Under the pieces are notes generated by a model. It saw nothing but the letters and a program-made list of their open reading frames with translations. It made no database searches and was not told where the DNA came from. Below are positions 33,879 through 47,120 of a stretch of 64,000 nucleotides of DNA, one piece after another. The position numbers and the translations under genes are program-made. Origin of the DNA: Candidatus Omnitrophota bacterium (GTDB taxonomy: Bacteria > Omnitrophota > Gorgyraeia > 2-01-FULL-45-10); the NCBI GenBank assembly GCA_041650935.1, contig JBAZKH010000004.1, forward strand, positions 5,040 through 69,039, in the 5' to 3' direction. Numbering within the stretch: the stretch's first letter is position 1; each line of letters begins with the position of its first letter.

Positions 33879-33910
33879 TTGCCGGGTGAATTCACCCGGC
33901 AAATTTTTTT
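33879..33910. repeat. REP family A copy 2 (ttgccgggtgaattcacccggcaa) plus a T7 run. It acts as the terminator for the GH94 gene and contains the RAYT stop codon.
   Basis: The palindrome is at 33879-33902 and TTTTTTT at 33904-33910. On the minus strand the RAYT reading frame ends ...KKFAG-TGA inside the REP. Confidence 0.7.
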
Positions 33911-34554
33911 GAGATTGCTGTTTGTCTCTGATATTCAATGTTTTCCTTAACAAACTTTTCGTAACTAGTACTATCCAGAGTTAAATATTCACCAAAATTA
34001 CATATTTTTTCATGAGAATCAATAGATCCTATGTATTCTTTGAAGGAAGAATACTTCCAATCTTCAGGGTTTTCAACAAGATATGCTGTGACTGGATTTA
34101 AGTGAAGGTAGCGGGTGAGGTGCAGTAATTGTTCGTCATTTTTTATTAAAACATTACCGAATCGGTTTTCCCATAATGGCCCCTTACGCTCATACTTTAT
34201 ATTGAAGTATCTACTATAGCTATTTAATATATGCCGCATATAATTCGATATTCCATCTTGACGAACTTCTTTTAGAACTAGATGGATGTGCGTGGGCATA
34301 ATACAATAACAAACAAGGTTGGTGCATTGCGGAGAAGGGTTGGATGCTAGAAATTCATCTTTTGCTTTTGCGTCAGCACAGATTTTACGAAATTCACGAA
34401 AAGTACAGGGAGATTTATCGTGTAAATAGAAACGGATCAGATCCAAAATTAATCGATAATCATTTTCGTTATTGAATATTTTAAAATCAGCGATGCTTTT
34501 ATTATATACATGATATAAGCCATCCATAAACAACGGAATCTCTCGTATTGGCAT
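33892..34554 (-). CDS. REP-associated tyrosine transposase (RAYT; IS200/IS605 TnpA-like Y1 HUH enzyme).
   Basis: HUH motif CYCIMPTHIHLVL and the catalytic-Tyr helix ...HLTRYLHLNPV (YxxxNP). AGGAGG RBS 5 nt upstream of the ATG (34554). Flanked by REP-A copies. The gene is markedly AT-rich relative to its neighbours. Confidence 0.8.
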   Translation of the reverse strand: MPIREIPLFMDGLYHVYNKSIADFKIFNNENDYRLILDLIRFYLHDKSPCTFREFRKICADAKAKDEFLASNPSPQCTNLVCYCIMPTHIHLVLKEVRQDGISNYMRHILNSYSRYFNIKYERKGPLWENRFGNVLIKNDEQLLHLTRYLHLNPVTAYLVENPEDWKYSSFKEYIGSIDSHEKICNFGEYLTLDSTSYEKFVKENIEYQRQTAISKKFAG

Positions 34555-34969
34555 AACATCCTCCTGTTTTATTCTTACTTTTACCCTTACTCTTGCCGGG
34601 TGAATTCACCCGGCAAGAGTAAGGTCTCTCATCTATAAGGACGCAAAAAGGGGCAAATTTGTTGCAATTTTTTTTAAATAAGCTTACTTCGAATTTTTCC
34701 CCGACGGGAAATGAATGTTGTGTAACTCTGATAGTGCACAGATATGTTACGCAGTCCAAATTCGTTAAGATTTCAAAAAGATAGACTTTGCTGCTTGACA
34801 AACTTCCCTTATATGCTAAACTAAACACAATGTCGCCCTCCTTCGCTAACTGACTTAAGATAACGGAAAGCTTCGGAGGGTGTTCTAATACAGAAAACAA
34901 TAACGAATGCTTGGCAAAGTTGCCAGGCATTTTTGTTTTATAAGTAAAGTAATTTATTAAGTCAGTCAA
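34502..34969 (-). CDS. Hypothetical small protein upstream of the RAYT on the same strand. Doubtful.
   Basis: A 155-codon ORF, mostly in the AT-rich spacer where random ORFs are rare. It reads through REP-A3 and overlaps the RAYT start by 52 nt. No recognisable motifs. Confidence 0.15.
   Translation of the reverse strand: MTDLINYFTYKTKMPGNFAKHSLLFSVLEHPPKLSVILSQLAKEGDIVFSLAYKGSLSSSKVYLFEILTNLDCVTYLCTIRVTQHSFPVGEKFEVSLFKKNCNKFAPFCVLIDERPYSCRVNSPGKSKGKSKNKTGGCYANTRDSVVYGWLISCI
34585..34624. repeat. REP family A copy 3: a 40-nt perfect palindrome ccttactcttgccgggtgaattcacccggcaagagtaagg.
   Basis: It lies 31 nt upstream of the RAYT start and completes the REP-RAYT-REP arrangement. Confidence 0.75.
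34795..34822 (+). promoter_or_regulatory. σ70-like promoter candidate for ORF3, implying a leader of about 160 nt.
   Basis: -35 TTGACA (34795-34800), a 16-nt spacer, then extended -10 TGcTAAACT (34814-34822). The architecture matches the ORF2 promoter. Confidence 0.35.
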
Positions 34970-34989
34970 ACCTGAGGAGCAGACTAATA

Positions 34990-37900
34990 ATGAAACGAAT
35001 AAATCGAGCGATTTCAGTCTTAATTTTAACCTCCTTTATATTCAATACTGCCGTATCGGACTTTGCTTACGGTGCGCCGATAAATTTAAAACCTTCCGTT
35101 GATAAACTTGCCCCGTCGTCTAAGTTCTGTGATCTGACCGGACGTATAGATAACCAGGATATTGCGAGGGTAGAGATGACCCTCGAGAGCCTGGTCTGGA
35201 AGGCGAGGAAATCCGACGGCACGCTCGATATCGAAAAGCTCATTAAAAACTCCAATGAATCTAGCGACAGCCTTTTCAAATCCCCCGTAAGGTTCGGAGA
35301 GGGGCTCCAGTTCTTCCCGCGCGAAGCAAAAGACTTACCCGGCGGATGCTGGCGTATTACCGCAAAGATAAACGACCGCCAAAATTTCAGCGGCAAAGGC
35401 TTTAGGACATATTATGCGGTACTTCCTGCGCATACCGATGCGCTCGGCGGATTCCCTGTAAGGGGTTATAAAGTAGAAGAGTGGCCGGCGGTAGAGAAAG
35501 AGATATTGGAGCGCGGGAAAACGCCTGACAGGGCGTCCGAAAGGTCCGAAGACGCTAAAGCGATCAACCGTTATAAAGAGAGTAACGAACGGATTATATC
35601 GACTTTTATCCGCGAACGTCTCTATGCGGGTGATTTCGCCGAAATAGAGGGGAGGGCCCATGCGCTCGACTGGGACGCGGAGTATCCGAACAGGATATCG
35701 CCTGATAGCAATCATAATGCCGCATACTGGACTAAAGATATAGAAGATATCTTCCGTAGTAATTCCAGGGAATTTTTTGATCTATTCGGCATAGAGTTCG
35801 ATAAAGTCTTCGGGAAGAAAAATTTCGTATTCATGAAGATCCCCAGGGGGATGGAAAGGCAGCTCGATATTATCGAGAACGGCGAAAGAGTACCGGTAAG
35901 AAGCCGCACGAGCAATAATGCCGTATACTTCTTCCTGAATGAAGATGATTTTAATGAGATCGGCAATTTATCGGCTTCTCATGATGTTGCACAGCTTCGG
36001 GAGCTTGTTATTAGCAGTATGCTGTTAAGTTTTATTCACGAGACAGGCGCCGCCTGCGGCCTGCCATTTTCCGTCCTGGAAGGCGGATTGGTCCAAAGCG
36101 ATCTGGACATAGCCTATAATACTTACTGGAGAATATTTACCGCGGCAACTTTAGAACCTATCGACGTACCGAAGGCTCGCCTCGCCGAAAAATTTTCCAA
36201 CCTTAAAAATCTAAAAGCCGTCGACCTTGATATTCTGCGCGGAGTGAATTTAGCCGGCGAGGAGTACAACCGTGACCTTGCGGCGGCAGTGTTTCCAAAA
36301 ACAGCGCGCGAAGCGACACGCGCACAAGATCTCCCGGGCGATCTGTTCCAGAGTTATGTACGCAGTAATGTGAATAATGTTACCGGGTTGGCTGCGTATG
36401 TGGAAAGCCGCCCGGCGCATGAGAGACCCGCTATTACCCAGAATATCCGCCGCATCCTGAGGGGTTTTCCCGTTGCCCGCAGGGCATTTAACCGCGCCAT
36501 AGCAGATAGCGCTATGAAGAACGCCGATAGCAGGTTAAAAGAGCTCGCCGCGGCCGTCCTGGACGATCGCGATATAAGAGGTTTCGATTTTTCTGTCCGA
36601 TACACCAATACCGGCAGGATTCCCGAGTACTACGAGACATTGCTGATAGATTTTGTAAACCCGCTAAGGCCCGGAGACAGCCAGGAGTTTGTGATTTCGC
36701 TGGTTGCGGGAACCGTAGGCTTGAAGGCCCTGTGGAATGGAGAACCTTACTACTATAGTAGCTTCTCCTCCGGCGGCGTACTGACTACTACCATAACAAA
36801 TGAATTCAAAGCCCGCCTGGCCAAAGTCAAAGAGGAGAATGCGTGGCAGGATTGGGCGCGTATTACGGACGAAGAAGCCGCCGAACAGCCCATTCCGCAA
36901 CCGAAAGGGCCTGTTGCCGGGGAATCCCTCACAAATCAGTCAAAAAGGAAGGTTCAGGAACTTGCTCTGGCGTCCAGGCGCGCTGCAAGGAAGGCCGCTA
37001 GAGAGCTAAAATGGGCCACAGGTTTAGTAGATGACGCAGAACCTCAAGATGCGGAGCCGGCGCTTCTCGCAGAGCCCGCCAAACCCGCGGCAAACCTGGC
37101 AACGATTGACGCTAAACATGCATATTTTTCTGAACTTCACCGGAAAGCCGGGGAGTTAGGCAAGAAAGCTGTGGTCGAGCTTCAGTTCCTTGAGGCCGAC
37201 GGCCGGATAGGCAGAGAGACCGTAACGCTTCCTATTGGTGAAGTCTCCAGGAATATGGATTGCCTGGTAGATTATCTTGCGACATTGCTTAACGTCAGGG
37301 GGCTAATAAACGGCGCAACAAAAGTTGCCGTTCTGACGAAAGAAACCGATGCCGGAGACATTATAGCGCGTTTACGCGAGCACCTGAGGGCGAATTTCGG
37401 AAAGACGGAATTTATGATGTCGTTCGGCCAGGGGATCAGCTTTACCAGGAAACCACTGAAGGCTGAAGCCCGAACCGAAAATAAGGCTAAGACTGTTCCG
37501 GTTGATTATGATAAAGGCGTCGGTGTTGGTTTTGACCTGGGCGGCCAGGGGATAAAATGGGCCCAGAGAACAAAGCCCGGCGAAAAGCCTGCTACCGGTC
37601 GTGTAGATATGGAAGAGCTTATGCGGCCCGGCGCTCTGGCTGGTTTCATCGAGCAAAAGATCAAAGAGACCGAGGAGTCGACGGGCCAGAAAGTAAGTCC
37701 AGGTCACCCCTGTATTATTACCATACCGGGTCCGGTTACACCGGATGGGCGTATAGTACTTATCACTAACCTGGAAAAGACAAGGCCTGGTACCCAGAAG
37801 GAACTTGAAGAGTTGCAGGCAAAGTATCCTCGCGGGACGATCCAGTTCCAGAATGATGCCAATGTGCCCGGCCACTTCTATACTGTATCCCAAAATATAA

Positions 37901-40900
37901 AAGGAAACGTTATCTTCAATACTCTCGGGACAGGCCTGGGGCTTGCGGTCCTCAAAGATCAAAAGTTGGGGCTGGGGCCGATGGAGGCTCATATAAAGAT
38001 GACCTCGGCGCCGGACGCCATTTATCATGATGGTTTTGGCATGAGTGGCGACCTTGAATCCTACGCGAATGCCGAGTTCGTGGTATGGAGAGCGAAGCAG
38101 CTTTGCGCGGAAAGAGGCGTTAGATGGATAGACGGCGCTTCCCCTAAAACCATTGCCAAATGGCTGGACCATCCTGTAGTAGATGCCGAAAAATATCTTA
38201 TTGCCAAAGATGTGTTTATGGAATTCGGAGAGAATCTCACCGTTCTTTATTCTGAAATTGCGCGTGTCCAGGAGGAAAACGAATGGACGGTCGTATGTAT
38301 AGGAGGTATTGCTCAGGGTAAAGCTATAGAAGCGATAATAAAGGGAGTGAACGCAGCGGTTAAGACGAAATATCCGCATTTAAAATTAAATATCAAAACT
38401 TTCCCCGAAGCCGCTTACGCAGGTGCCATAGGCGCTCTCAATCTGGGTATTCAGGCCGCCGCAGAGACAGCGAAAACTACTGTCGAAGCCGCGCGGAATA
38501 CCGGCGGAGACGGCCAGGCGTACGGTGATAGCAATAAGTCTACGGTGGAAGTTATTCGCGCAGCCGAATCTAAGTGGGGCGGAGAGCTCTGGAAAAAAGA
38601 AGAGCTCAAGGCATTTGTAGATGAAAAGTTTGATGCCGTAACGGCGCTTTCCGCCGGCCCGATCTTTGTGCCGAGATCCGTAGTCCCAAATGAGGCGAGG
38701 GTGGGCTTGACACCTATCGGCATCGCATTTTTACGCGCCATAGGTGTTAAAAATCCCATTTATGTCCAAGTGGGTTGCGGTGTTAATCGCGGCACAGGCG
38801 AAGTCTATTTTTCCGACGATGAATACCGTCGGGCAGGGGCCGAGGTGCTTACCTGGGATGCTTTTGTGGCGAAAGCGCAAAGCGTTGACCGGAAGACTGT
38901 AGTCAATACAAAAGATCCGCAAGAATCCGAATTCCCGATCCTCAAAGGAGCGACTTTATTTGCGTATTTACACCTGGCGGCGCATCCGGAGCTTGCCCGA
39001 AGGCTATGCGATGTCATTGAAACAGGTATTGGTTACGAAACGATCGCTTTCTATGACAACGGAGTTTTACGCACTCCCGTTCTTCGCCCGGCAAGCCGTC
39101 CGACAGGCTGGTTATCCGCGCTTCGTTATTTAGAAACGGTGCGTGCGAAAAAAGAAGGACTGGATTTAAAGTCACCCGCGGTGCAAGTTCAGATGGGGCG
39201 TTGGTATAATGAAGACGCCGGGCAGTATCCTATGATGCCGCGACATACTACAGGAGCCCTTTCCGGCAAGACGGTAGTTGTTTTAGGCGGAGGGGAAGTA
39301 GGCTCAAGCGCCGCATTTGCGGCCGCCGACATGGGAGCCGCTGTTTATGTCACCGAAATCAATAGCAATCGTATTACCGAACTTGAGCAGATGATAGCCG
39401 AACGGCGCATAAGAGGCGCCGCGGGTTCCGTAGAAGTGGTCGCGAGAGACCAGAGAACGCCTATCGGCCAGGACGGGATCGGCAAGCATTTGTGGGAAGC
39501 CGACGCCATAATCGGCGCCTGTTATGTCGAAGGTTCCAGGCCTCCCGTTGAGATCGACTATACGCTTTACCGGGCACTTGTTGAACATGGCAACCTTGAG
39601 TATATGGCGGATCCCCCGATTGACCAGGGAGGAAGTATCGCGATAAGGCCCGGCCCGGAAGCTTCTGTTGAGCATACTGTTGAGCATACTTATGAGGATG
39701 GCTGGATAATAGAAGACGGTGTCTCGATCTTTACCGTGAGGAATATACCGAGCCTTCTGTCGCTTCAAGTTTCTCTCGGCCTTGAGCGGGCCAAGATGCC
39801 GTATCTTGTAGCGTCTCTCATGGGGCTCGAAAAAGCGATCGCTGCTTTCCCCGAGTTTGCCAGGGGCGTTAATGTTTATAAGGGGGCAGTAACCCAAGAG
39901 AATGTTGCCAGAGACATCGGCAAAGAGTATCTTCCGCTGGATACCGCTCTTTCCGGCGCAGGGTTGGGCGCGAGGCCGACAGCCGAGTATGTACTGCCGG
40001 CAGGTATTAAGGTAAATGATGTGAATGGCGCGATAAATGTAAAAGTATTCGAGCGCGAGGCATCCTTTAGTGTTTCGGATAATGCCGCAGTGATCGAGCA
40101 AAAATTAAGGGATATTTTAACGCCTTACAACATGCGGATCGGGGAAGGATGTTTAATTAACACTTATTTAAAACGTAAAGTGCTGCTCCCGAAGTTTGTG
40201 CGCAGTGCCGAAGGACTTCGCGCCGTTATCGCGGAACTGTTCGGCAGGATAAGCATTACGCTGCCCGGCCGAAAAGACAGGATCGAGATAACGAATTCTG
40301 CCAGTGTGGTTACCGCTCAACTTAACATAAGTGAAGCATTCAGGGGTAGCGGTATAGATGCATATGCAATAGGCGGCGATATGGTTACGTTGACACGCCC
40401 CGGCGTGAGCAGGATTAACGTCCCCGTACCGTTAGAACCGGCCAAACTCCAGGAAGCCTTCGAAACGCTATATGGAGAAACTCCGGCTAGTGACGTGCCT
40501 GTAGCAGGGACGACGCTTTCACTGAAAGATATTGTCAGGCATGATGTATTGAACGCGCTCTTAAACATGGCCATCAACTATTCCCGTGGAAGAAATGATA
40601 ACTTTATAAAGCATGAATATGATGGCGATGCTGAAATCTACTGGATTAAAGGAGGCGATTTCCGCGGTCTGCTGCAGTATTTGCTTGATTGCAAGCGTGA
40701 AGACCTGAAAATGGCAAAACGGTCTGTCGAAAACGATACCGAGTTATTCACTCTACTCATGCGCAATATCTTGAGCAGGTCTTATATATCCAACGAGATA
40801 CGCGTGATGTATGATTTAAGCTCATTTGCAGAACAGGTCGACAGCATGTTTTTGCTGGACTACCAACTGTCGGGGCAATTTGAACACTTCGGAGTCGGCT

Positions 40901-43900
40901 CCGGTGTTTCCACCGGCCCCATAAGGATCTTTATGTCTTCAGGCATGAGAGAGCATAAAGATGAGATCATTGCTCACGTCAAGGCCGAACGGGCACTCCA
41001 CTGGGCGGTCATCAATAAGTATTTTAAAGGCAACCTCAATAACTATCGGGAATGGAGAAAAAGCAGGATATCTATTAAGATCAATGTCGAGATAGAAGCC
41101 GAAAATTATACGGAGAAAAAAGGTGCCGTTACCTTATTACAAATCGATTCAGGAAGTAAACAGTTAACTTATAACGAATTTGCGGAAGAGGCCCATAAAA
41201 CGGCCGATGTTATTGCGAATGTTTCCCGTTTCAAAGAAATCTACAAGCGGCAGGGGGGAAGAAATACATCTCTTCTGCATGGGGAAGTTTCGGTTGCCGG
41301 CACCGCCTCCGGGCAGGATGGAGGCAAGCCGGATGAAAGGAAGAAAGATCTCGCTGGCATGGTTAGAAGCCTGACCAAGGCTGGCAAGAGCCCGGAAGAC
41401 GCGATCATAATTATCGCGATGGAAGGCCTGCGTAAATTTACTATAGATAAGTATAAAAGTGTTTATGAGTTACAAAGATCGCGAGGGGTATTAAAGCTCG
41501 ATCCCCTTGCCGGCAGCGATTCTACCGTGAGGGATAACATCTACCGTGGTTCCAATTCGCTCGAGAGCCGGCATTTAATCGCGCCTATCTATGGCGAGGT
41601 TAATGTAAAGGGCAGGTCTGTGCGCGCATGGCAACTGACAAGGCGCGGCGCGGAGATGGCAGAAGCGATAAGGATAATAAGGATCACCATGCAGGATATT
41701 ATGACAACGAGCGAGTCTATGCGTGGTGAGATCGAGGATGGCGAAGCGAAATCTGTCGCTAAAGCACTAGAAAGCGAATGCAGACAGGTTTTCGATCTCA
41801 AAGGTCCGGAATTTTTTGCAGAAATGGGGAGTCCGATAAATTTTGCAAATGCGCTTTACACAGCGCATTTGTCGAGACTTATAACCGTTTTAAGCGGCCT
41901 GAGCGCCAGGGAACATTCGGATTATTTTGGGAAACTGTCCAATAAACTGCGTGGTTATCGTGATGCGCTTCGGACGGGCGCGGACAAATTTGCGGCATCC
42001 CTTAAAGGAGAATTTTCCGGGGGCTCGCGCATCGATTTACCCAAAGCTGCCGACGCCGGCGCGATAGGCGGCGCTTCCAATATGGGTGTCCAGGCGGCTG
42101 TGCGTGCAGGGACGGAAAGCGCAAGCGAGCCGCAGCCGGCTAGTGACGCGCCTGTGGCGGAAGACGACAAAATGTCGTCTATTTCGCGTCTTACGAAAAT
42201 TTTAGACAGGGCACGGGAGGAAGGGATAAGGAATGCCCTGTTTGTCTTCGATATCGGCGGGACCCTTACAGGATGGAACGATGTTAAAGTCAATGAAATG
42301 GGAGGATATCCCGAAGTAAACAAGAGCCTGGAATCTTTATTGAAGAATGGGTACTATTCCGGCGTGCCGGATTTTGCGCAGGTTGTTTCACTTCTGGCAA
42401 GATATGGACACAAGGTGGGATTTATAACTACCGCAACGCTGGAGGAGACTGTAGGGATATTGCATGAGACCATGAGGGTGGAAGATTTGAATAGTGTGGC
42501 GTTAATAGTCGCGAAAAAATCGAACTCGCAATATATTCCTTCCCTTGCGGGCAGGTTTGGTATCCCGGCCGGTTTAGCAACAAGCGGTGAGCTCATCAAT
42601 CATTTACAAACGGCATATCCCGGCATGGTGGTTGAGTTAAGCGCCCTTCCAAAGCCGGAGATCGTAACGTCTGTGCCAAGAGTTGAAGATCTGCTTGATA
42701 AATATCCCGTCATTGCCATAGGTGATAGAGAAGAGGATTGTTCTTGGACGCAGGCCCTAAGCATGGCCGCAGGCGTTCGGGTCCCGTCCATCGGTAAAGA
42801 CGCTATAAATAATGTTGCCAAGACGGCCGCCGCGGGAATAGAGCTTTTATTGGAAAAGGACCAGCCTGCCGCGCCGGCGAGTAGTACCGGAGAAACAGCG
42901 GAAGTAGGGGGCCTTGGCCGTTTTATCGATAGTTCCGATCTGGGAGAGCACTACCGCGCTGTTATGGATGAAAATCCCGGGCCGACGGATCGTATCAGCA
43001 TTATAGTGAGCGGCAGGATAAGCCAATTAGATGGAAGCAGTGATCCCGTTTCCTATAATATAATCATCGGTAACGGGTGTATTGAGATTTGGGAACGTGA
43101 CGCATGGGACGTAAGATGGTATCCGGTTAAAGCGGAGATGACAGGGGCAAGACAGCTTACCTTGAGAGGTTCTGGTAAATCCGAAGTTGTCAAATTACCT
43201 GCGAGAATATTTGATCTTGTGGCGGCTATTAATAATGTCCTGGGACATAGATTTGTAAGCGTCCCATCGGTGAAGTTATCCAAAATAGCCGAGGAATCAG
43301 AAATAGAAGACCATGGCAGCCGGCCGGCGCCGCAAAATTCGTCGAAGGCAGCGGCCCTTGCGAAGACGTGCGCGGAAATTAAAGCTATGAGCGAAATAGC
43401 GCCGCAGATAGGCGACATAGCCGAACTTGCCGGAAAACAGATGGACAGGGAAAAGGACGGGAAGTATACCCTAGCTGTGCCGCCGGAAATGTTCAAGAAT
43501 AAGTGGGAGTTCAATAAACGCCGCAGGGAGTATGGCGACAGGTTCAACCTGGTCGAGACGAGTGCGCTTACGGCATCGGCGGAGACGTTTGTTAATAATC
43601 TGTTGAATCCCAAAACCATTCCGGAAGATCAAAGAAGCAAAACGATTGCGCTTGTACCGAAGAGTTTATCCAGAGATGACCTGGCAAGGCTCAAGGATGC
43701 CAAGATAAGATTTATCCCGGTCAGCGACCAACTGGCAAGCGTGAAAAGCTATCCTGAAGACGACAGGAAAATATTCCAGGTAAATACTTTTGCCGCCATG
43801 CATTCTTTGCGTCACGTAAACGATTCGCACGATACCGCATCCGTAGTTTATAGGATATCGGCTTTCTACGCATTACGCCATATTACTTCAAAAGACGGCG

Positions 43901-44043
43901 TTAAGATCAGTATAGAGGATTTCATCAAGGCAGTCGTCGATGGAAATGTCGACATATTGATCGATGTCTGTTTCGAGCCGGTCCGTCCGAAAGACGCGGA
44001 GAAAGAGCATGATATGGTTTCGAAACCTCTGATATTTGCGTAA
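34990..44043 (+). CDS. Giant secreted or anchored multidomain protein (3,017 aa). It has a ROK/glucokinase-like ATPase, an alanine-dehydrogenase/transhydrogenase-like NAD module and a degenerate HAD-like module.
   Basis: ATG at 34990 with RBS GAGGAG at 34974-34979. Signal peptide MKRINRAISVLILTSFIFNTAVSDFAYGAP. Single ORF to TAA at 44041-44043. Confidence 0.85.
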   Translation: MKRINRAISVLILTSFIFNTAVSDFAYGAPINLKPSVDKLAPSSKFCDLTGRIDNQDIARVEMTLESLVWKARKSDGTLDIEKLIKNSNESSDSLFKSPVRFGEGLQFFPREAKDLPGGCWRITAKINDRQNFSGKGFRTYYAVLPAHTDALGGFPVRGYKVEEWPAVEKEILERGKTPDRASERSEDAKAINRYKESNERIISTFIRERLYAGDFAEIEGRAHALDWDAEYPNRISPDSNHNAAYWTKDIEDIFRSNSREFFDLFGIEFDKVFGKKNFVFMKIPRGMERQLDIIENGERVPVRSRTSNNAVYFFLNEDDFNEIGNLSASHDVAQLRELVISSMLLSFIHETGAACGLPFSVLEGGLVQSDLDIAYNTYWRIFTAATLEPIDVPKARLAEKFSNLKNLKAVDLDILRGVNLAGEEYNRDLAAAVFPKTAREATRAQDLPGDLFQSYVRSNVNNVTGLAAYVESRPAHERPAITQNIRRILRGFPVARRAFNRAIADSAMKNADSRLKELAAAVLDDRDIRGFDFSVRYTNTGRIPEYYETLLIDFVNPLRPGDSQEFVISLVAGTVGLKALWNGEPYYYSSFSSGGVLTTTITNEFKARLAKVKEENAWQDWARITDEEAAEQPIPQPKGPVAGESLTNQSKRKVQELALASRRAARKAARELKWATGLVDDAEPQDAEPALLAEPAKPAANLATIDAKHAYFSELHRKAGELGKKAVVELQFLEADGRIGRETVTLPIGEVSRNMDCLVDYLATLLNVRGLINGATKVAVLTKETDAGDIIARLREHLRANFGKTEFMMSFGQGISFTRKPLKAEARTENKAKTVPVDYDKGVGVGFDLGGQGIKWAQRTKPGEKPATGRVDMEELMRPGALAGFIEQKIKETEESTGQKVSPGHPCIITIPGPVTPDGRIVLITNLEKTRPGTQKELEELQAKYPRGTIQFQNDANVPGHFYTVSQNIKGNVIFNTLGTGLGLAVLKDQKLGLGPMEAHIKMTSAPDAIYHDGFGMSGDLESYANAEFVVWRAKQLCAERGVRWIDGASPKTIAKWLDHPVVDAEKYLIAKDVFMEFGENLTVLYSEIARVQEENEWTVVCIGGIAQGKAIEAIIKGVNAAVKTKYPHLKLNIKTFPEAAYAGAIGALNLGIQAAAETAKTTVEAARNTGGDGQAYGDSNKSTVEVIRAAESKWGGELWKKEELKAFVDEKFDAVTALSAGPIFVPRSVVPNEARVGLTPIGIAFLRAIGVKNPIYVQVGCGVNRGTGEVYFSDDEYRRAGAEVLTWDAFVAKAQSVDRKTVVNTKDPQESEFPILKGATLFAYLHLAAHPELARRLCDVIETGIGYETIAFYDNGVLRTPVLRPASRPTGWLSALRYLETVRAKKEGLDLKSPAVQVQMGRWYNEDAGQYPMMPRHTTGALSGKTVVVLGGGEVGSSAAFAAADMGAAVYVTEINSNRITELEQMIAERRIRGAAGSVEVVARDQRTPIGQDGIGKHLWEADAIIGACYVEGSRPPVEIDYTLYRALVEHGNLEYMADPPIDQGGSIAIRPGPEASVEHTVEHTYEDGWIIEDGVSIFTVRNIPSLLSLQVSLGLERAKMPYLVASLMGLEKAIAAFPEFARGVNVYKGAVTQENVARDIGKEYLPLDTALSGAGLGARPTAEYVLPAGIKVNDVNGAINVKVFEREASFSVSDNAAVIEQKLRDILTPYNMRIGEGCLINTYLKRKVLLPKFVRSAEGLRAVIAELFGRISITLPGRKDRIEITNSASVVTAQLNISEAFRGSGIDAYAIGGDMVTLTRPGVSRINVPVPLEPAKLQEAFETLYGETPASDVPVAGTTLSLKDIVRHDVLNALLNMAINYSRGRNDNFIKHEYDGDAEIYWIKGGDFRGLLQYLLDCKREDLKMAKRSVENDTELFTLLMRNILSRSYISNEIRVMYDLSSFAEQVDSMFLLDYQLSGQFEHFGVGSGVSTGPIRIFMSSGMREHKDEIIAHVKAERALHWAVINKYFKGNLNNYREWRKSRISIKINVEIEAENYTEKKGAVTLLQIDSGSKQLTYNEFAEEAHKTADVIANVSRFKEIYKRQGGRNTSLLHGEVSVAGTASGQDGGKPDERKKDLAGMVRSLTKAGKSPEDAIIIIAMEGLRKFTIDKYKSVYELQRSRGVLKLDPLAGSDSTVRDNIYRGSNSLESRHLIAPIYGEVNVKGRSVRAWQLTRRGAEMAEAIRIIRITMQDIMTTSESMRGEIEDGEAKSVAKALESECRQVFDLKGPEFFAEMGSPINFANALYTAHLSRLITVLSGLSAREHSDYFGKLSNKLRGYRDALRTGADKFAASLKGEFSGGSRIDLPKAADAGAIGGASNMGVQAAVRAGTESASEPQPASDAPVAEDDKMSSISRLTKILDRAREEGIRNALFVFDIGGTLTGWNDVKVNEMGGYPEVNKSLESLLKNGYYSGVPDFAQVVSLLARYGHKVGFITTATLEETVGILHETMRVEDLNSVALIVAKKSNSQYIPSLAGRFGIPAGLATSGELINHLQTAYPGMVVELSALPKPEIVTSVPRVEDLLDKYPVIAIGDREEDCSWTQALSMAAGVRVPSIGKDAINNVAKTAAAGIELLLEKDQPAAPASSTGETAEVGGLGRFIDSSDLGEHYRAVMDENPGPTDRISIIVSGRISQLDGSSDPVSYNIIIGNGCIEIWERDAWDVRWYPVKAEMTGARQLTLRGSGKSEVVKLPARIFDLVAAINNVLGHRFVSVPSVKLSKIAEESEIEDHGSRPAPQNSSKAAALAKTCAEIKAMSEIAPQIGDIAELAGKQMDREKDGKYTLAVPPEMFKNKWEFNKRRREYGDRFNLVETSALTASAETFVNNLLNPKTIPEDQRSKTIALVPKSLSRDDLARLKDAKIRFIPVSDQLASVKSYPEDDRKIFQVNTFAAMHSLRHVNDSHDTASVVYRISAFYALRHITSKDGVKISIEDFIKAVVDGNVDILIDVCFEPVRPKDAEKEHDMVSKPLIFA
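37510..38450 (+). other. ROK / glucokinase-like ASKHA sugar-kinase domain.
   Basis: VGFDLGGQGIKWA (the phosphate-1 DxGGT-type loop, from 37525), FQNDANVPG (the ROK NDAN motif), NTLGTGLGLAV (the phosphate-2 GTGxG loop) and ...CIGGIAQG... Confidence 0.55.
38680..39800 (+). other. Alanine dehydrogenase / pyridine-nucleotide transhydrogenase-like N-terminal and NAD(H)-binding domains.
   Basis: ...RVGLTPIGIAFLRAIG... followed by KTVVVLGGGEVGSSAAFAAADMGAAVYVTEINSNRITELE (a GxGxxG Rossmann fingerprint at 39275-39316). Confidence 0.5.
42200..42830 (+). other. HAD-like module with a degenerate motif I.
   Basis: LFVFDIGGTLTGW (42247-42267) is DxGGTL rather than DxDGTL. Downstream ...VIAIGDREEDCSWTQ... 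resembles a GDxxxD motif IV. It may be non-catalytic. Confidence 0.3.
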
Positions 44044-44056
44044 CCTTTGCTTTCTC

Positions 44057-44077
44057 CCCGGCAAGAAGCTTGCCGGG
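44057..44077. repeat. REP-A-related hairpin cccggcaag-aag-cttgccggg, with the REP-A arms in swapped order.
   Basis: A 9-bp stem with a 3-nt loop, 14 nt after the ORF3 stop. The arms are identical to those of REP-A but arranged as at a REP-REP junction. Confidence 0.5.
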
Positions 44078-44088
44078 ATAAGCCTGTA

Positions 44089-44097
44089 TGGTATAAT
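44089..44097 (+). promoter_or_regulatory. Extended -10 TGgTATAAT, giving a leaderless transcript for the response-regulator gene.
   Basis: TATAAT at 44092-44097 with TG at 44089-44090. The ATG at 44104 is 7 nt downstream, so the TSS falls at or near the A of the ATG. No RBS is possible. Confidence 0.4.
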
Positions 44098-44103
44098 ATC
44101 CCT

Positions 44104-44787
44104 ATGCGAATACTCGTTATCGAAGACGAGCGGAAGATAGCCGATTTCATCAGGCGCGGCTTAAAAGAAGAAGGCTATGCCGTCGATACTTCTTACGACG
44201 GCGAGAACGGCCTATTTCTCGCCAAGACCAATAACTATGACCTCATCCTTCTCGATCTTATGCTCCCTAAAATAGACGGTATTACGGTCTGCAAAAAGCT
44301 GAGAGCGGATAAGATCGTATCGCCTATCATAATGCTTACCGCCAAAGACGCCGTAAAGGATAAGGTCACAGGCCTCGACGCCGGCGCCGACGATTATCTG
44401 ACAAAACCATTTGCCTTCGAGGAGCTATTGGCCAGGATCCGCGCAATATTAAGGAAGAAGGGCGAACAGGAACAGGCGACGCGTCTTGCGGTCGGCGATC
44501 TTTCACTCGACCTCACGACGCATAAAGTTACCAGGGCGGGGAAAGATATAGAGCTGACTTCAAAAGAATTTGCGCTGCTGGAATACCTTATGAGAAACGC
44601 CGGCAAGGTTGTGACCAGGACGATGATATCCGAGCACGTCTGGGATATAGATTTCGACACGTTCACCAACGTCATAGACGTCTACATCAATTATCTCCGT
44701 AATAAAATAGACTCCGACGCCAGAGTGAAGCTCATCCAGACCGTGAGGGGAAGAGGATATATACTGAAAAGTGATAATGACAAATGA
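44104..44787 (+). CDS. OmpR-family response regulator (receiver plus winged-helix DNA-binding domain).
   Basis: MRILVIEDERKIADFIRRGL...DLILLDLMLPKIDG...LTAKDAVKDKVTGLDAGADDYLTKPF... followed by a trans_reg_C-like C-terminus ...LEYLMRNAGKVVTRTMISEHVW... Confidence 0.85.
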   Translation: MRILVIEDERKIADFIRRGLKEEGYAVDTSYDGENGLFLAKTNNYDLILLDLMLPKIDGITVCKKLRADKIVSPIIMLTAKDAVKDKVTGLDAGADDYLTKPFAFEELLARIRAILRKKGEQEQATRLAVGDLSLDLTTHKVTRAGKDIELTSKEFALLEYLMRNAGKVVTRTMISEHVWDIDFDTFTNVIDVYINYLRNKIDSDARVKLIQTVRGRGYILKSDNDK

Positions 44788-44811
44788 CAAAATCCGAATG
44801 ACAAATTAATC
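44772..44811 (+). promoter_or_regulatory. Conserved direct-repeat element, copy 1: gtgataatgacaaatgacaaaatccgaatgacaaattaatc. It spans the response-regulator stop codon.
   Basis: 35 of 41 positions are identical to 63513-63552. Three TGACAAA half-sites at about 14-nt spacing. An inverted copy tttgtcattg lies at 44825-44834. The element sits between the response-regulator and kinase genes. Confidence 0.4.
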
Positions 44812-44860
44812 ATTAAATATCAAATTTGTCATTGAACACCGTATTCTTGGGCAAAAATAT

Positions 44861-46336
44861 ATGTTCTACAAGTCCATCCGCTTCAAGGTATCGATCGTCT
44901 ACATGGCCATACTGGCCATCACGCTCTCCATATTCAGCACGCTCCTGTATCACCAGGTGAGCAAATCCCTCTACGATAATATCGATGCTATCTTAAGTTC
45001 GCGCGCCGAAGGTATAGTCTCGGCTATCGGCACGTACTGGTCGACAGAACGGCTGGGCACGGCCCGTTACGGCGCGGCGGCGCAGATACCTCCGCCTGCC
45101 GGAGAGAATGCCGATTTCGCGACCATTGCCCAGCGCTGGGTCGAGGCGCGGTCAAAGGACCCGAAGCTCCTCAATATCATAGTCCAGATATTCGATGCCA
45201 GGGGAGATATAGTCACCTCATCGAAGAATACTCAGGGCATAACGAGCGTCTCCGACTCCACCCTCTACGCGGCACTCCAGGGCAAGAGCACGTTCGATAC
45301 GCTTACGACGTCATTTCCCACGAAAAAGATGCAGGTATTCCGCGTCTACATTACGCCCGCGCTCCAGGACGAGCGGGTGGAATATATCGTCCAGGTCGCC
45401 AGTCCGCTCGATTCGATAATAGACGCCCTGAATACCCTTAAAGTCACGGTCTTCATACTCTTCCCGATAACGGTTTTGATCACCGGGGTCATGGGCGCAT
45501 TCCTGGCGAAGCTTACCCTGCGGCCGGTAGACAGCATGATACGCACGATACATAATATAACCGTCGAGAATATGAAGATGAAGCTGGCGATCCCCAACAC
45601 CAAAGACGAGATACAGAAACTCGCCGAAACTTTTAACGATATGCTCGGCCGGCTCGATATAGCTTTCACTTCCCAGCGGCATCTTTTTGAAAACCTTTCG
45701 CATGAGCTGAAGACCCCGCTCACGATACTTAACGGCGAGTTCGAGGTCATCCTTAAGAAGATGCGTTCCCCGGCGGATTATGAGGCCGTCCTGCGTTCGA
45801 GCCTCGAAGAGATCAATAAGATGACACGGCTGGTGGAGAATCTCCTTCTCCTGGCGAGTTTCGAATCGAAAAATTTCATGCCGGAGAAAAAGACGCTCGA
45901 CCTGACGGCCTTGCTGAAGGGCGTAAGCGACAATATGCGCAGGCTGGCCGAAAGGAAGAAGATAGCCATATCGTTTACGGCCAAAGAGGCGGTCGGGATA
46001 GTCGGCGATGAAAAAGAGCTGAAGCAGCTCTTCCTTAATATAATAGATAATGCCGTTAAGTATACCCCCGATGGCGGCCGGATAAGCGTGAGCGTTGAAA
46101 AGTCCTATGAGTCGGCCAGGATCGTCATAAGCGATACGGGTGTCGGCATCCCATCGGGCGATACAGTGCACATATTCGACAGGTTCTATCGTGTCCAGGA
46201 TACGAGATCGAGCTGCGGTTTTGGTCTCGGATTGAGCATAGCCAAGGCCGTTATAGACTCCCATAACGGCTCCGTTAAGGTAGAGAGCGCCCCGGGAGAA
46301 GGAAGTTCCTTCATTATTACCCTGCCATTGCGATAG
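44861..46336 (+). CDS. Sensor histidine kinase (two TM helices with a periplasmic loop, then HAMP, HisKA and HATPase_c).
   Basis: H-box HELKTPL (45701-45721). N-box ...IIDNAVKYTP... G-boxes DTGVGIP and GFGLGLSIAK. TM segments at the N-terminus and at about residue 190. Confidence 0.85.
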   Translation: MFYKSIRFKVSIVYMAILAITLSIFSTLLYHQVSKSLYDNIDAILSSRAEGIVSAIGTYWSTERLGTARYGAAAQIPPPAGENADFATIAQRWVEARSKDPKLLNIIVQIFDARGDIVTSSKNTQGITSVSDSTLYAALQGKSTFDTLTTSFPTKKMQVFRVYITPALQDERVEYIVQVASPLDSIIDALNTLKVTVFILFPITVLITGVMGAFLAKLTLRPVDSMIRTIHNITVENMKMKLAIPNTKDEIQKLAETFNDMLGRLDIAFTSQRHLFENLSHELKTPLTILNGEFEVILKKMRSPADYEAVLRSSLEEINKMTRLVENLLLLASFESKNFMPEKKTLDLTALLKGVSDNMRRLAERKKIAISFTAKEAVGIVGDEKELKQLFLNIIDNAVKYTPDGGRISVSVEKSYESARIVISDTGVGIPSGDTVHIFDRFYRVQDTRSSCGFGLGLSIAKAVIDSHNGSVKVESAPGEGSSFIITLPLR

Positions 46337-46406
46337 CCAATATTAGAATCTTTTAATCTTTCTCTAATTGGGATTTAATGGCCTATTGTGTATACTTTTA
46401 CTAAAA

Positions 46407-46445: not shown

Positions 46446-46470
46446 GAGGGCTAAAAGAAAGGGGGAGGGT

Positions 46471-47091: not shown

Positions 47092-47120
47092 AAATAGTGA
47101 ATAGTGTATAGTAAATAAAT

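What the first reader, a model, noticed from the sequence alone, without database searches (positions are those of the whole stretch)
34990..44043. Second giant secreted protein combining a ROK glucokinase-like ATPase, an AlaDH/transhydrogenase-like NAD module and a degenerate HAD module
The ROK-type sugar-kinase motifs (DLGGQG, NDAN, GTGLG) would phosphorylate glucose. This is the step immediately upstream of the enzymes fused in ORF2, so ORF2 and ORF3 together may encode a complete glucose to UDP-glucose route split across two megaproteins. The Rossmann module (VVVLGGGEVGSSAA) and the HAD-like module with DIGGTL in place of DxDGTL suggest redox and phosphatase-like modules that may be catalytically dead. 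A signal peptide is again present.
Basis: partly seen in the sequence, partly recalled or inferred. Interest (0 to 1): 0.7.

Follow-up and report, generated by a model that had tools for sequence, protein, structure and literature searches.

The report
Capped enzyme-carrier protein of Omnitrophota
This 3,017-residue protein from an uncultured Omnitrophota bacterium carries a sugar kinase and an alanine dehydrogenase, both normally cytoplasmic, behind an export signal. It belongs to a previously undescribed family (at least 264 sequence clusters) in which conserved N- and C-terminal "cap" domains flank swappable central-metabolism enzymes.

Summary
The ORF is real: 34990-44043 on the + strand, 3,017 aa, with a strong Shine-Dalgarno sequence. 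The ROK (aa 846-1152) and AlaDH/PNT (aa 1227-1636) calls are confirmed. All five AlaDH catalytic residues and the NAD motif are intact and conserved in related proteins, so that module is not dead. The HAD call stays unproven: PF00702 scores E = 0.31 and the AlphaFold2 model has pLDDT 43. The proposed glucose to UDP-glucose route with ORF2 is unsupported, because ORF2 shows only a cupin-type GPI and a weak PGM domain.

ORF3 belongs to a family seen so far only in Omnitrophota. Members share four parts:
- a strongly conserved Sec-type signal peptide;
- an N-cap of about 430 aa;
- variable cargo;
- a C-cap of about 200 aa ending in ...L-[ILM]-[SF]-A.

Cargo in 89 members includes hexokinase, PFK, aldolase, PGK, transaldolase, AlaDH, CsrA and a sigma-54 activator AAA+ domain. 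The caps match no Pfam, NCBIfam or PDB entry. The family has no transmembrane helices.

My best reading (confidence 0.45) is that these are exported carriers of active cytoplasm-type enzymes that work outside the producer's cytoplasm, possibly in prey. The main rival is a tethered multi-enzyme assembly in the producer's own cytoplasm. Metabolic domains in exported Omnitrophota giant proteins are already reported; the capped family is new.

The parts
34795..34822 (+). sigma-70-like promoter candidate (TTGACA-16-TAAACT with a TG extension)
   Evidence: This is a consensus match only. The number of such sites in the region is no greater than in shuffled sequence.
34905..34932 (+). hairpin followed by a T-run in the 5' leader of ORF3; function unknown
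   Evidence: No Rfam family matches it.
34974..34979 (+). Shine-Dalgarno sequence GAGGAG, 10 nt upstream of the ATG
   Evidence: Read directly from the sequence.
34990..44043 (+). ORF3, 3,017 aa plus stop codon. It is 100% identical to the NCBI entry 'MAG: ROK family protein [Candidatus Omnitrophota bacterium]'.
34990..35073 (+). Family-typical Sec-type signal peptide, aa 1-28 (MKRINRAISVLILTSFIFNTAVSDFAYG|AP)
   Evidence: Hydropathy scan. 64 of 66 complete N-caps pass a crude test for a charged n-region plus a hydrophobic h-region. Positions -3 and -1 are mostly small residues across the family. Cleavage is predicted, not shown.
35074..36369 (+). N-cap domain, aa about 29-460. Conserved motifs are RYKxNE, FIRER, KNxVF, SNNAxYxF, HExG...GLPF, VDLD and RD[YL]AA.
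   Evidence: Shared at 35-41% identity with P0002-P0006. The N-cap profile finds 264 representative clusters. No Pfam or PDB match. No structural analogue was found.
36370..37524 (+). Unannotated region, aa 461-845, including an Ala/Glu/Lys/Pro-rich linker at about aa 600-750
   Evidence: No Pfam hit even when scanned on its own. Not shared with other family members. Composition.
37525..38445 (+). ROK-family sugar-kinase module, aa 846-1152. It lacks the zinc motif and most resembles polyphosphate/ATP glucomannokinase.
   Evidence: Pfam ROK, 29.4 bits against a gathering score of 22.9. NCBIfam polyphosphate-glucose phosphotransferase, E = 1.6e-6. PDB 1woq, E = 1e-5. Motif positions.
38668..39897 (+). 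Alanine-dehydrogenase-like NAD module, aa 1227-1636, with an intact catalytic set
   Evidence: Pfam AlaDh_PNT_N and AlaDh_PNT_C. TIGR00518 scores 128.8 bits. PDB 8hyh, E = 6e-34, with R, K, H, E and D aligned. These residues are conserved across seven family cargo modules.
40396..41391 (+). Recurrent module of unknown function, aa about 1803-2134. Invariant residues are H1851, N1855, H1966, H1996, E2000, H2004, Y2019, W2022 and R2023.
   Evidence: Shared with seven other family proteins, twice in one of them. Alignment A8. No PDB or Pfam match.
42241..42741 (+). Possible degenerate HAD-like module, aa 2418-2584 (motif I DIGGT, II VGFITT, III KPE, IV GDREED); unproven
   Evidence: Motif positions. 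PF00702 scores E = 0.31, covering motif I only. No PDB hit. AlphaFold2 pLDDT 43. No relatives in metagenomes.
43405..44040 (+). C-cap domain, aa about 2806-3017. It starts around KYTLAVPPEMF, contains YGDRF and IRFIPV, and ends in the conserved tail ...SKPLIFA.
   Evidence: C-cap HMM scores E = 1e-87 (4-sequence model) and 1.5e-57 (85-sequence model). It is present at the extreme C-terminus of 85 of the 150 best N-cap proteins. In the model of P0113 it folds as a flavodoxin-like domain plus a helical bundle.

Best explanation
ORF3 belongs to a previously undescribed family of soluble, modular 'capped cargo' proteins, found so far only in Omnitrophota.

Shown here:
- The gene is intact and has a good ribosome-binding site.
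- The product begins with a canonical signal peptide that is unusually well conserved across the family.
- Next comes an N-cap of about 430 aa, and the protein ends in a C-cap of about 200 aa with a conserved extreme C-terminus.
- Between the caps lie modules that differ from member to member and come from cytoplasmic central metabolism.
- In ORF3 these are a divergent, zinc-less ROK sugar kinase, an alanine-dehydrogenase-like NAD enzyme with every catalytic residue intact, a His-rich module of unknown function that recurs in the family, and perhaps a degenerate HAD-like module.

Inferred:
- The protein is exported through Sec and its leader is cleaved after AYG28.
- The two caps, being common to all cargos, carry out the step all members share. 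That step could be sorting, anchoring, assembly or onward translocation.
- The enzymes then act outside the producer's cytoplasm, at the predator-prey interface or inside an attached prey cell. Those are the only external places that hold ATP or polyphosphate, NAD(H), RNA and RNA polymerase.
- The ROK module would phosphorylate a hexose at the entry to glycolysis. The AlaDH module would convert pyruvate, ammonium and NADH to alanine and NAD+ at the exit.
- Together the two would push a redox-balanced sugar-to-alanine flux.
For: Gene and domains.

N-cap:
- It is shared with P0002-P0006, which carry PFK, CsrA or LmbE plus a GlcN6P-isomerase-type domain.
- An exhaustive profile search found 264 representative clusters at E <= 1e-3 and 86 at E <= 1e-30. 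The N-cap almost always starts at residue 1.

C-cap:
- 85 of the top 150 proteins also carry the C-cap at the very C-terminus, with the tail [DE]Y-x-x-[IV]-[AS]-x-x-L-[ILM]-[SF]-A.

Cargo census of 89 members:
- hexokinase 4, class II FBP aldolase 4, transaldolase 3, PGK 2, PFK 1, PfkB 2, AlaDH 6, CsrA 3;
- also GH77, MurB, a sigma-54 activator AAA+ domain and others.

Enzyme competence:
- AlaDH catalytic residues are intact in ORF3 and in six other family AlaDH modules at under 35% identity. This indicates selection for activity.
- ROK keeps the catalytic Asp, the GTGLG motif, the sugar-binding Glu and His, and the GG adenosine motif.

Export:
- 64 of 66 leaders pass the crude test for a charged n-region plus a hydrophobic h-region, and in most the hydrophobic run is 12 residues, too short for a membrane anchor.
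- Position -3 is A, S, V or T and position -1 is A, G or S.
- Only 4 of 140 members have a marginal internal hydrophobic window.

Taxonomy: every taxon-labelled member is Omnitrophota, apart from one MAG labelled 'uncultured Planctomycetia'.

Literature:
- Omnitrophota are proposed predators or parasites, and some classes carry ATP/ADP translocases (PMC10066038).
- Predator RNA has been seen in dead prey cells (PMC13153191).
- Metabolic Pfam content of long Omnitrophota proteins is predicted to lie on the extracytoplasmic side (10.64898/2026.06.07.730766; 10.1101/2023.11.21.568195).
Against: - Export is predicted from sequence heuristics only. No SignalP run or experiment backs it.
- ATP- and NAD-dependent enzymes, CsrA and sigma-54 activators have no known substrates in a periplasm or outside cells. 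No route for moving a 3,000-aa protein into prey is known or encoded nearby.
- The locus logic fits a cytoplasmic role. The 790-aa GH94 phosphorylase next door has no signal peptide and would release glucose and glucose-1-phosphate inside the cell.
- The ROK match is weak at 29 bits, and Thr is replaced by Gln in the phosphate-1 motif (DLGGQ).
- The AlaDH score is far below the equivalog cut-off (128.8 against 391.85 bits), so its substrate is not certain.
- About 60% of ORF3 has no annotation at all.
- The function of the caps is wholly inferred. I could not inspect the cap model's inter-domain geometry (PAE).
Confidence: 0.45

Rival explanations
1. ORF3 is a membrane-tethered multi-enzyme assembly in the producer's own cytoplasm. 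The hydrophobic N-terminus would serve only to attach the protein to the inner membrane. The enzyme modules would process the products of the surrounding beta-1,2-glucan locus, with ROK converting glucose to glucose-6-phosphate and AlaDH handling pyruvate and alanine.
For: - All cargo types in the family need cytoplasmic cofactors or partners.
- ORF3 sits among three GH144 genes, two GH94 genes, a solute-binding protein with ABC permeases, and a ROK-type regulator.
- The 790-aa GH94 lacks a signal peptide.
- The 2026 preprint notes that hexokinase and GPI are found in only part of Omnitrophota genomes. That leaves room for fused versions to be the working copies.
Against: - The hydrophobic stretch is only about 12 residues. 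It is followed by a conserved polar region and a cleavage site with small residues at -3 and -1. That is the pattern of a cleaved signal peptide, not an anchor.
- The positive charges before the hydrophobic stretch predict that the body of the protein lies outside.
- No other membrane segment exists to bring the cargo back inside.
Confidence: 0.3
2. ORF3 is a polyprotein precursor. The giant chain would be cut after synthesis into separate enzymes, and the caps would serve folding or processing. This can be combined with either location.
For: - West-Roberts et al. propose autocatalytic cleavage of Omnitrophota giant proteins.
- Long low-complexity linkers separate the modules.
- A low-confidence linker follows the conserved RDYAAG motif at the end of the N-cap.
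Against: - No protease domain is detected in ORF3.
- No conserved cleavage motif was found between cargo modules.
- A cargo-less member exists (P0113), which argues that the caps have a function of their own.
Confidence: 0.15
3. One reading: ROK phosphorylates glucose upstream of enzymes in ORF2, giving a glucose to UDP-glucose route split across two megaproteins. The Rossmann and HAD modules would be catalytically dead.
For: - A ROK module is present in ORF3.
- ORF2 has a weak PGM domain II and a cupin-type GPI.
- The HAD-like motif I lacks the second Asp.
Against: - ORF2 shows no UDP-glucose pyrophosphorylase or other nucleotidyltransferase signal.
- GPI leads to fructose-6-phosphate, not UDP-glucose.
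- The AlaDH catalytic set is intact and conserved.
- ORF2 and ORF3 belong to different families.
Confidence: 0.05
4. ORF3 is a surface adhesin or coat protein. The enzyme-derived modules would act only as sugar- or nucleotide-binding domains and would not catalyse anything.
For: - Giant Omnitrophota proteins are widely read as adhesins or coat proteins.
- ORF3 is predicted to be exported.
- The ROK module is very divergent.
Against: - Catalytic residues, not only binding residues, are conserved in AlaDH across the family.
- Cargo such as CsrA, PGK and sigma-54 activators has no plausible adhesin role.
- No adhesin-type repeats are detected.
Confidence: 0.08

Closest known systems
Omnitrophota giant or long multi-enzyme proteins ('Archaeovorins'; West-Roberts et al. 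2023 bioRxiv 10.1101/2023.11.21.568195, and 2026 bioRxiv 10.64898/2026.06.07.730766)
   Same: - Same phylum.
- Very long proteins with signal peptides that carry glycolytic and sugar-metabolism Pfam domains (TIM, GPI, FBPase, PGM, aldolase, PPDK; ROK in 44 long proteins).
- The domains are predicted to lie on the extracytoplasmic side, which raises the same topological puzzle.
   Different: - Those reports describe much larger proteins, often with many transmembrane helices, HEAT/TPR repeats and glycosyltransferases.
- In the passages I searched, they do not describe a family defined by a conserved N-cap and C-cap. The term 'conserved N-terminal' has 0 hits in the 2026 preprint.
- This family is 600-4,500 aa long, has no transmembrane helices, and has a fixed cap-cargo-cap layout.
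Microsporidian secreted hexokinases (PMC6460350)
   Same: A parasite adds a signal peptide to an otherwise cytosolic glycolytic enzyme so that it acts in the host. The family here includes hexokinase cargo behind a signal peptide.
   Different: - The microsporidian case is eukaryotic and uses single-domain enzymes without cap domains.
- Delivery into the host is shown there. Here it is only inferred.
MARTX toxins (from my own knowledge, not tested here)
   Same: Conserved N- and C-terminal regions flank a variable set of central effector domains.
   Different: - MARTX proteins have glycine-rich repeats and a cysteine protease domain, and they use type I secretion without a Sec leader. None of these features was detected.
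- MARTX cargo consists of toxins, not metabolic enzymes.
Type IX secretion cargo (N-terminal Sec signal plus conserved C-terminal domain; from my own knowledge)
   Same: The logic of a Sec leader plus a conserved C-terminal sorting domain, regardless of cargo.
   Different: - The T9SS C-terminal domain is a beta-sandwich of about 80 aa. The C-cap is a 200-aa flavodoxin-like domain plus a helical bundle.
- No T9SS C-terminal-domain model matched.
- There is an additional large N-cap.
Polyphosphate/ATP glucomannokinase (PDB 1woq), for the ROK module
   Same: It is the best solved relative. Shared features are the phosphate-1 motif, the NDA catalytic Asp, the TLGTG[IL]G motif, and the absence of the cysteine zinc motif.
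   Different: - The match is only 28 bits.
- Thr is replaced by Gln in DxGGT.
- The module is embedded in a 3,017-aa protein.
L-alanine dehydrogenase (PDB 8hyh, 2vhw, 1pjb), for the NAD module
   Same: Two-domain AlaDH/PNT architecture with all catalytic residues and NAD-binding motifs.
   Different: - It scores 128.8 bits against the equivalog cut-off of 391.85.
- The stretch between the two Pfam domains (about aa 1359-1426) is long, and the NAD domain also carries an insert.

Membership tests
Capped-cargo family (defined here) | N-cap domain directly after the signal peptide | tested here: met
   N-cap HMM scores E = 1.7e-212 (6-sequence model) and 5e-132 (66-sequence model) on ORF3 aa 1-460. 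It is the top hit of the exhaustive profile search.
Capped-cargo family (defined here) | C-cap domain at the extreme C-terminus with the conserved tail ...L-[ILM]-[SF]-A | tested here: met
   C-cap HMM scores E = 1.7e-87 and 4.3e-58. The ORF3 tail is ...SKPLIFA.
Capped-cargo family (defined here) | Family-type leader: M-[KR]-[KR]-x-x-[KR]-[IV]-[IV]-S-x-x-V-L-x-x-F-L-[FL]-N | tested here: met
   The ORF3 leader is MKRINRAISVLILTSFIFN.
Sec/SPase I signal peptide | Positive n-region, h-region of 7-15 residues, small residues at -3 and -1 | tested here: met
   Charge +3, 12 hydrophobic residues, A-Y-G|A. These are heuristics only. No trained predictor was available.
Sec/SPase I signal peptide | Actual export and cleavage | not testable with these tools
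   This needs reporter fusions or N-terminal proteomics.
ROK family (PF00480) | Profile match above the curated cut-off | tested here: met
   29.4 bits against 22.9, covering profile positions 2-290 of 294.
ROK family (PF00480) | ASKHA phosphate-1 motif DxGGT | tested here: inconclusive
   The motif reads DLGGQ at aa 849-853. Asp and Gly-Gly are kept, but Thr is replaced by Gln.
ROK family (PF00480) | Catalytic Asp (NDAN) and the GTG[IL]G motif; sugar-binding Glu and His | tested here: met
   QNDANV at aa 954-959, TLGTGLGLA at aa 978-986, MEAH at aa 998-1001.
ROK family (PF00480) | Zinc-binding motif CxCGxxGCxE | tested here: not met
   No cysteines occur in the corresponding stretch (...HDGFGMSGDLES...). 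From my own knowledge, the polyphosphate-glucokinase clade of ROK also lacks this motif.
ROK glucokinase / polyphosphate glucokinase equivalogs (TIGR00744, NF045942) | Score above the equivalog or subfamily cut-off | tested here: not met
   20.4 bits against 260, and 28 bits against 250. The sugar and phosphate-donor specificity is therefore open.
AlaDH/PNT family (PF05222 + PF01262) | Both domains above the curated cut-off, in order | tested here: met
   58.5 bits against 30.4, and 65.7 bits against 23.
AlaDH/PNT family (PF05222 + PF01262) | Catalytic residues R15, K75, H96, E118 and D270 (AlaDH numbering, from my own knowledge of AlaDH structures) | tested here: met
   They align with R1237, K1308, H1328, E1350 and D1545 in the 8hyh and 9unz alignments. 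They are conserved in 7 of 7 family modules.
AlaDH/PNT family (PF05222 + PF01262) | NAD-binding GxGxxG motif plus an acidic residue after beta-2 | tested here: met
   LGGGEVG at aa 1432-1438, and VYVTE with E1456.
L-alanine dehydrogenase equivalog (TIGR00518) | Score above the equivalog cut-off | tested here: not met
   128.8 bits against 391.85. I therefore call it AlaDH-like, not a proven AlaDH.
HAD superfamily | Profile match above the cut-off | tested here: not met
   PF00702 scores E = 0.31 and 11.8 bits against 26.4, covering motif I only. Whole-protein scans show nothing.
HAD superfamily | Motif I DxDx[TV] | tested here: not met
   The motif reads D-I-G-G-T. The second Asp is replaced by Gly.
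HAD superfamily | Rossmannoid fold with motifs II-IV in the correct places | tested here: inconclusive
   Candidate motifs can be read by eye. The AlphaFold2 model has pLDDT 43, and no relatives were found to build a profile.
MARTX / T9SS cargo / autotransporter | Glycine-rich repeats with a cysteine protease domain; a por_Secre_tail C-terminal domain; a C-terminal beta-barrel | tested here: not met
   No such Pfam or NCBIfam matches. The C-cap is predicted to be alpha/beta plus helical.

The most novel reading that the evidence does not exclude
Omnitrophota may possess a dedicated sorting or delivery system, recognised by a conserved leader plus N- and C-terminal cap domains with no detectable structural relatives. 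The system would export a whole toolkit of cytoplasm-type proteins:
- glycolytic and pentose-phosphate enzymes;
- alanine dehydrogenase;
- CsrA;
- sigma-54 activators.

The proteins would go either into attached prey cells as metabolic and regulatory effectors, or into an extracytoplasmic metabolic compartment. The first case would be a bacterial counterpart of the secreted hexokinases of microsporidia. The second would resemble the targeting of glycolytic enzymes to glycosomes.
Probability: 0.25. Interest if true: 0.9.

Novelty: new variant of a known kind. Interest (0 to 1): 0.65.

Why it matters
Preprints have already noted that exported Omnitrophota giant proteins contain metabolic enzyme domains, and they left this unexplained. 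This analysis turns that oddity into a defined family that can be tested.

- **Size and layout.** There are at least 264 sequence clusters with a fixed leader, N-cap, cargo and C-cap order. A cargo-less member exists (P0113). The catalytic residues of the cargo are under selection.
- **If the caps are a sorting or delivery device.** They would explain how ultra-small predatory bacteria place ATP- and NAD-dependent enzymes and RNA- or RNA-polymerase-binding regulators outside their own cytoplasm. They would also give a sequence tag for listing the whole exported set.
- **If the proteins stay inside the cell.** The family would show that a textbook signal-peptide pattern can mean something else in this phylum. 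That would change how Omnitrophota metabolism is reconstructed from genomes.

In either case, the N-cap core domain and the His-rich module are new domains worth solving.

Tried and rejected
- **Paralogy among the window's giant proteins.** BLASTP found none. Cap HMMs and hhalign showed that ORF1 and ORF2 lack the caps. A by-eye resemblance of their C-terminal tails was therefore rejected.
- **Word-indexed protein searches.** The whole-protein search was dominated by ROK and AlaDH words and found only 2 proteins. The search with the C-cap profile returned only one fragment.
- **Alignment of cap fragments to P0113 (A6).** MAFFT smeared the rows across the reference, so I discarded it. A 67-protein full-length alignment crashed. 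The 38-protein version was used instead.
- **HAD-like region.** All of these were negative or unusable: PDB sequence search, single-sequence AlphaFold2, a metagenome scan for relatives, and a Pfam scan of the isolated segment.
- **Profile searches against PDB sequences.** The N-cap, the C-cap and the His-rich module all gave nothing.
- **Phage origin.** No family member occurs on IMG/VR viral contigs.
- **Conserved neighbours or secretion genes next to family members.** None was seen in two long contigs.
- **Known RNA element in the 5' leader.** None.
- **ORF2-ORF3 co-occurrence test.** It could not be run, because ORF3 has no orthologue with the same cargo.


Full report
**1. Checking the observation**

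The window has one uninterrupted ORF at 34990-44043 on the + strand, 3,017 aa long. GAGGAG lies 10 nt upstream of the ATG. The protein is 100% identical to an NCBI entry named 'MAG: ROK family protein [Candidatus Omnitrophota bacterium]', on a 178-kb contig.

Pfam places three domains on it:
- ROK at aa 846-1152 (E = 7.5e-7; 29.4 bits against a gathering score of 22.9);
- AlaDh_PNT_N at aa 1227-1358 (E = 1e-15);
- AlaDh_PNT_C at aa 1427-1636 (E = 5e-18).

NCBIfam agrees. The alaDH model scores 128.8 bits, and polyphosphate-glucose phosphotransferase scores E = 1.6e-6. The only strongly hydrophobic segment is the N-terminal one, MKRINR-AISVLILTSFIF-NTAVSDFAYG|AP. The ORF, the signal peptide, ROK and AlaDH are therefore confirmed at the stated coordinates.

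The HAD module is not confirmed.
- No HAD family matches the whole protein.
- The isolated segment gives only PF00702 at E = 0.31, covering motif I.
- PDB sequences give nothing.
- The metagenome scan found no relatives.
- The single-sequence AlphaFold2 model has pLDDT 43.
- By eye the four HAD motifs can be read, at aa 2418-2428, 2476-2483, 2553-2557 and 2575-2584. This remains a hint only.

**2. State of the enzyme modules**

I aligned the NAD module to solved alanine dehydrogenases (8hyh, E = 6e-34; 9unz). It keeps the equivalents of R15, K75, H96, E118 and D270, the GGGxxG motif and the acidic residue after beta-2. The same residues are conserved in six other AlaDH-like modules found as cargo in related proteins, at under 35% identity. 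This argues for selection on catalysis. The score is well below the equivalog cut-off, so I call the module AlaDH-like.

The ROK module is very divergent. Its best solved relative is the polyphosphate/ATP glucomannokinase 1woq (E = 1e-5).
- It keeps the catalytic Asp (NDAN), the TLGTGLG motif, a Glu-x-His sugar-binding pair and the GG adenosine motif.
- Gln replaces Thr in DxGGT.
- It lacks the cysteine zinc motif.
- Whether it is active, and which phosphate donor it uses, cannot be decided here.

**3. What the protein really is**

The word-indexed search with the N-terminal 840 aa found proteins that share aa 1-460 at 35-41% identity but carry other enzymes: PFK, CsrA, or LmbE plus a GlcN6P-isomerase-type domain. 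Their C-terminal 200 aa are also alike, down to the last residues.

An exhaustive profile search with the N-terminal domain (the 'N-cap') covered 1.84 billion representative proteins.
- It found 264 clusters at E <= 1e-3 and 86 at E <= 1e-30.
- The match nearly always starts at residue 1.
- The proteins range from about 600 to 4,500 aa.

Of the best 150 proteins, 85 also carry the C-terminal domain (the 'C-cap'). It always sits at the extreme C-terminus and ends in [DE]Y-x-x-[IV]-[AS]-x-x-L-[ILM]-[SF]-A. Some of the remainder are short fragments.

Pfam scans of 89 members give the cargo list:
- hexokinase, PFK, PfkB kinase, class II FBP aldolase, PGK, transaldolase, cupin-type GPI;
- aldose epimerase, histidine-phosphatase (PGAM-type), GH77, GlcN6P isomerase/6PGL, PIG-L, NAD-dependent epimerases, MurB;
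- AlaDH, Glu/Leu dehydrogenase, 2-hydroxyacid dehydrogenase;
- ARMT1-like phosphatase, RidA, CsrA and a sigma-54 activator AAA+ domain.

One member, P0113 (677 aa), is essentially N-cap plus C-cap with no cargo.

Within ORF3:
- the AlaDH module recurs in eight other members;
- an unannotated module at aa about 1803-2134 recurs in seven other proteins, twice in one of them, and has an invariant His/Glu/Trp/Arg constellation;
- the ROK module and the HAD-like stretch are unique to ORF3 among the 150 proteins.

ORF1 and ORF2 of the window do not carry the caps.

**4. Nature of the caps**

No Pfam, NCBIfam or PDB sequence matches either cap, even as profiles.

I predicted the structure of P0113 with AlphaFold2, using 38 full-length members as the alignment. 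The model has pLDDT 75 and pTM 0.62.
- The N-cap is a mixed alpha/beta domain.
- The C-cap is a flavodoxin-like beta/alpha unit followed by a helical bundle.
- Foldseek finds nothing at E <= 1e-3.

The N-cap core can occur three times in one protein (L005), and two family genes can sit side by side. The core is therefore an autonomous domain, not just a leader extension.

**5. Localisation**

- 64 of 66 complete N-caps pass a crude signal-peptide test. Most have a six-residue n-region of charge +2 or +3, then a 12-residue hydrophobic run ending in a well-conserved Asn.
- Position -3 is A, S, V or T. Position -1 is A, G or S. Position +1 is often Q.
- In 140 members (218,000 residues across the full set of 150), only four have even a marginal internal hydrophobic window, and these lie in globular motifs.
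- The family is therefore 'signal peptide only', and the prediction is export of the whole chain.
- The leader is unusually conserved. ORF2 shares it, although it is otherwise unrelated. The ordinary signal peptides of the neighbouring GH144 and CBM proteins do not.
- Every taxon-labelled member is Omnitrophota, apart from one MAG labelled 'uncultured Planctomycetia'.
- None lies on viral contigs.
- No conserved neighbour or secretion gene was seen next to two other members.

**6. Genomic surroundings**

ORF3 sits in what looks like a beta-1,2-glucan utilisation locus:
- three GH144-type ('Glycoamylase', PF10091) proteins with signal peptides;
- a CBM protein;
- a lipoprotein-type solute-binding protein and two ABC permeases;
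- a 790-aa GH94 phosphorylase without a signal peptide;
- a 2,044-aa GH94 protein with one;
- a ROK-family regulator with an N-terminal winged helix;
- an OmpR-type response regulator and a histidine kinase directly downstream of ORF3.

The cytoplasmic GH94 would release glucose and glucose-1-phosphate inside the cell. This fits a cytoplasmic role for a glucokinase and is the main argument for the rival explanation.

ORF2 shows only a cupin-type GPI and a weak PGM domain II, and no nucleotidyltransferase. The UDP-glucose route is therefore unsupported. If the two proteins are linked, the link points towards glycolysis.

**7. How it most likely works**

Shown: the architecture, the family, the intact catalytic residues, the leader pattern and the absence of membrane segments.

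Inferred:
- The protein is exported through Sec and its leader is cleaved.
- The caps perform the step shared by all members, whatever the cargo.
- The cargo acts outside the producer's cytoplasm.
- CsrA, sigma-54 activators, kinases and dehydrogenases need RNA, RNA polymerase, ATP and NAD(H). The only external place that offers these is another cell's cytoplasm.

Published work gives some context.
- Omnitrophota are proposed epibiotic predators or parasites, and some classes carry ATP/ADP translocases (PMC10066038).
- Predator RNA has been seen in dead prey cells (PMC13153191).
- Microsporidia secrete hexokinase into their hosts (PMC6460350).

In ORF3, a hexose kinase at the entry to glycolysis and an AlaDH at its exit would together favour a redox-balanced sugar-to-alanine flux. 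This last point is my own inference.

I put this reading at 0.45. The tethered cytoplasmic multi-enzyme reading gets 0.30. A polyprotein precursor, which is compatible with either location, gets 0.15. A non-catalytic adhesin gets 0.08.

**8. Comparison with what is known, and novelty**

Two preprints already report metabolic enzyme domains in exported Omnitrophota giant proteins, including ROK in 44 long proteins, and both discuss the same topological puzzle.

I did not find the cap-cargo-cap family in those texts. The new elements are:
- its conserved leader;
- its N-cap without a detectable structural relative, and its C-cap with only a generic flavodoxin-like match;
- its cargo-less member;
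- its size of at least 264 clusters.

I rate the whole as a new variant of a known kind, with interest 0.65.

**9. Limits**

- No trained signal-peptide predictor was available.
- Taxonomy is known only for the labelled minority of members.
- The Pfam census covered 89 of the 264 clusters.
- I could not inspect the inter-domain confidence (PAE) of the cap model.
- About 60% of ORF3 remains unannotated.

Noticed in passing
window 16957-16980, 33879-33902, 34593-34616; gene 33892-34554 (-): A perfect 24-nt palindrome, TTGCCGGGTGAATTCACCCGGCAA, occurs three times (0 expected by chance). One copy follows ORF1, one follows the 790-aa GH94 gene, and one lies on the far side of an IS200/Y1-transposase-like gene. 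That gene sits in a 36% GC island. The arrangement looks like REP elements with a REP-associated tyrosine transposase. A Y1_Tnp gene also lies about 4 kb upstream of family member P0036.
   Followed up: partly
window 26703-33867 and 44047-63511: The surroundings look like a beta-1,2-glucan utilisation locus. It holds three GH144-type (PF10091) proteins with signal peptides, a CBM11/30 protein, a lipoprotein-type solute-binding protein with two ABC permeases, a 790-aa GH94 without a signal peptide, a 2,044-aa GH94 with one, a ROK-type regulator with a winged helix, and an OmpR-type response regulator with a histidine kinase.
   Followed up: partly
window 17223-26666 (ORF2): The true start of ORF2 is probably the ATG at 17223, which has an AAAGGAG Shine-Dalgarno sequence. 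Its leader, MMRKLISVLVIQSFLLSN, is of the same unusual conserved type as the capped family. ORF2 has neither cap, so this leader type is shared by at least two unrelated families of long multi-enzyme proteins.
   Followed up: partly
window 22-16947 (ORF1, 5,641 aa): ORF1 starts with an HExxH motif (PAHEFGHSM) followed by a hydrophobic stretch, which suggests a membrane metalloprotease. It also carries PEP-utilising (PPDK/PEP synthase-like) domains at aa about 1837-2495. The rest has no Pfam match.
   Followed up: no
window 40396-41391 (ORF3 aa about 1803-2134): A module of unknown function recurs in seven other family proteins, twice in one of them. Its invariant motifs are H-x3-N-A-L, an invariant His in (E/D)-H-(F/L), H-x3-E-x3-H and Y-x2-W-R, which suggests a metal or catalytic site. 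It has no Pfam or PDB match.
   Followed up: partly
L005 2688-5282 (-) and 5971-11373 (+): Two family genes lie back to back. The longer one holds three copies of the N-cap core domain. Several database members also show 2-6 matched stretches.
   Followed up: no
P0113 (677 aa; NCBI MFH1877942.1): This is a cargo-less family member, with an N-cap joined to a C-cap by a linker of about 70 aa. It is useful as a minimal construct for structural or localisation work.
   Followed up: yes
window 34905-34932: A 12-bp hairpin followed by a T-run lies inside the 5' leader of ORF3, between the promoter-like site and the start codon. It could be an attenuator. No Rfam family matches it.
   Followed up: no
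window 51296-57430: This 2,044-aa protein has a signal peptide, and its GH94 supersandwich and catalytic domains occupy only the C-terminal third. The N-terminal 1,290 aa have no Pfam match. An exported GH94-type phosphorylase is unusual.
   Followed up: no
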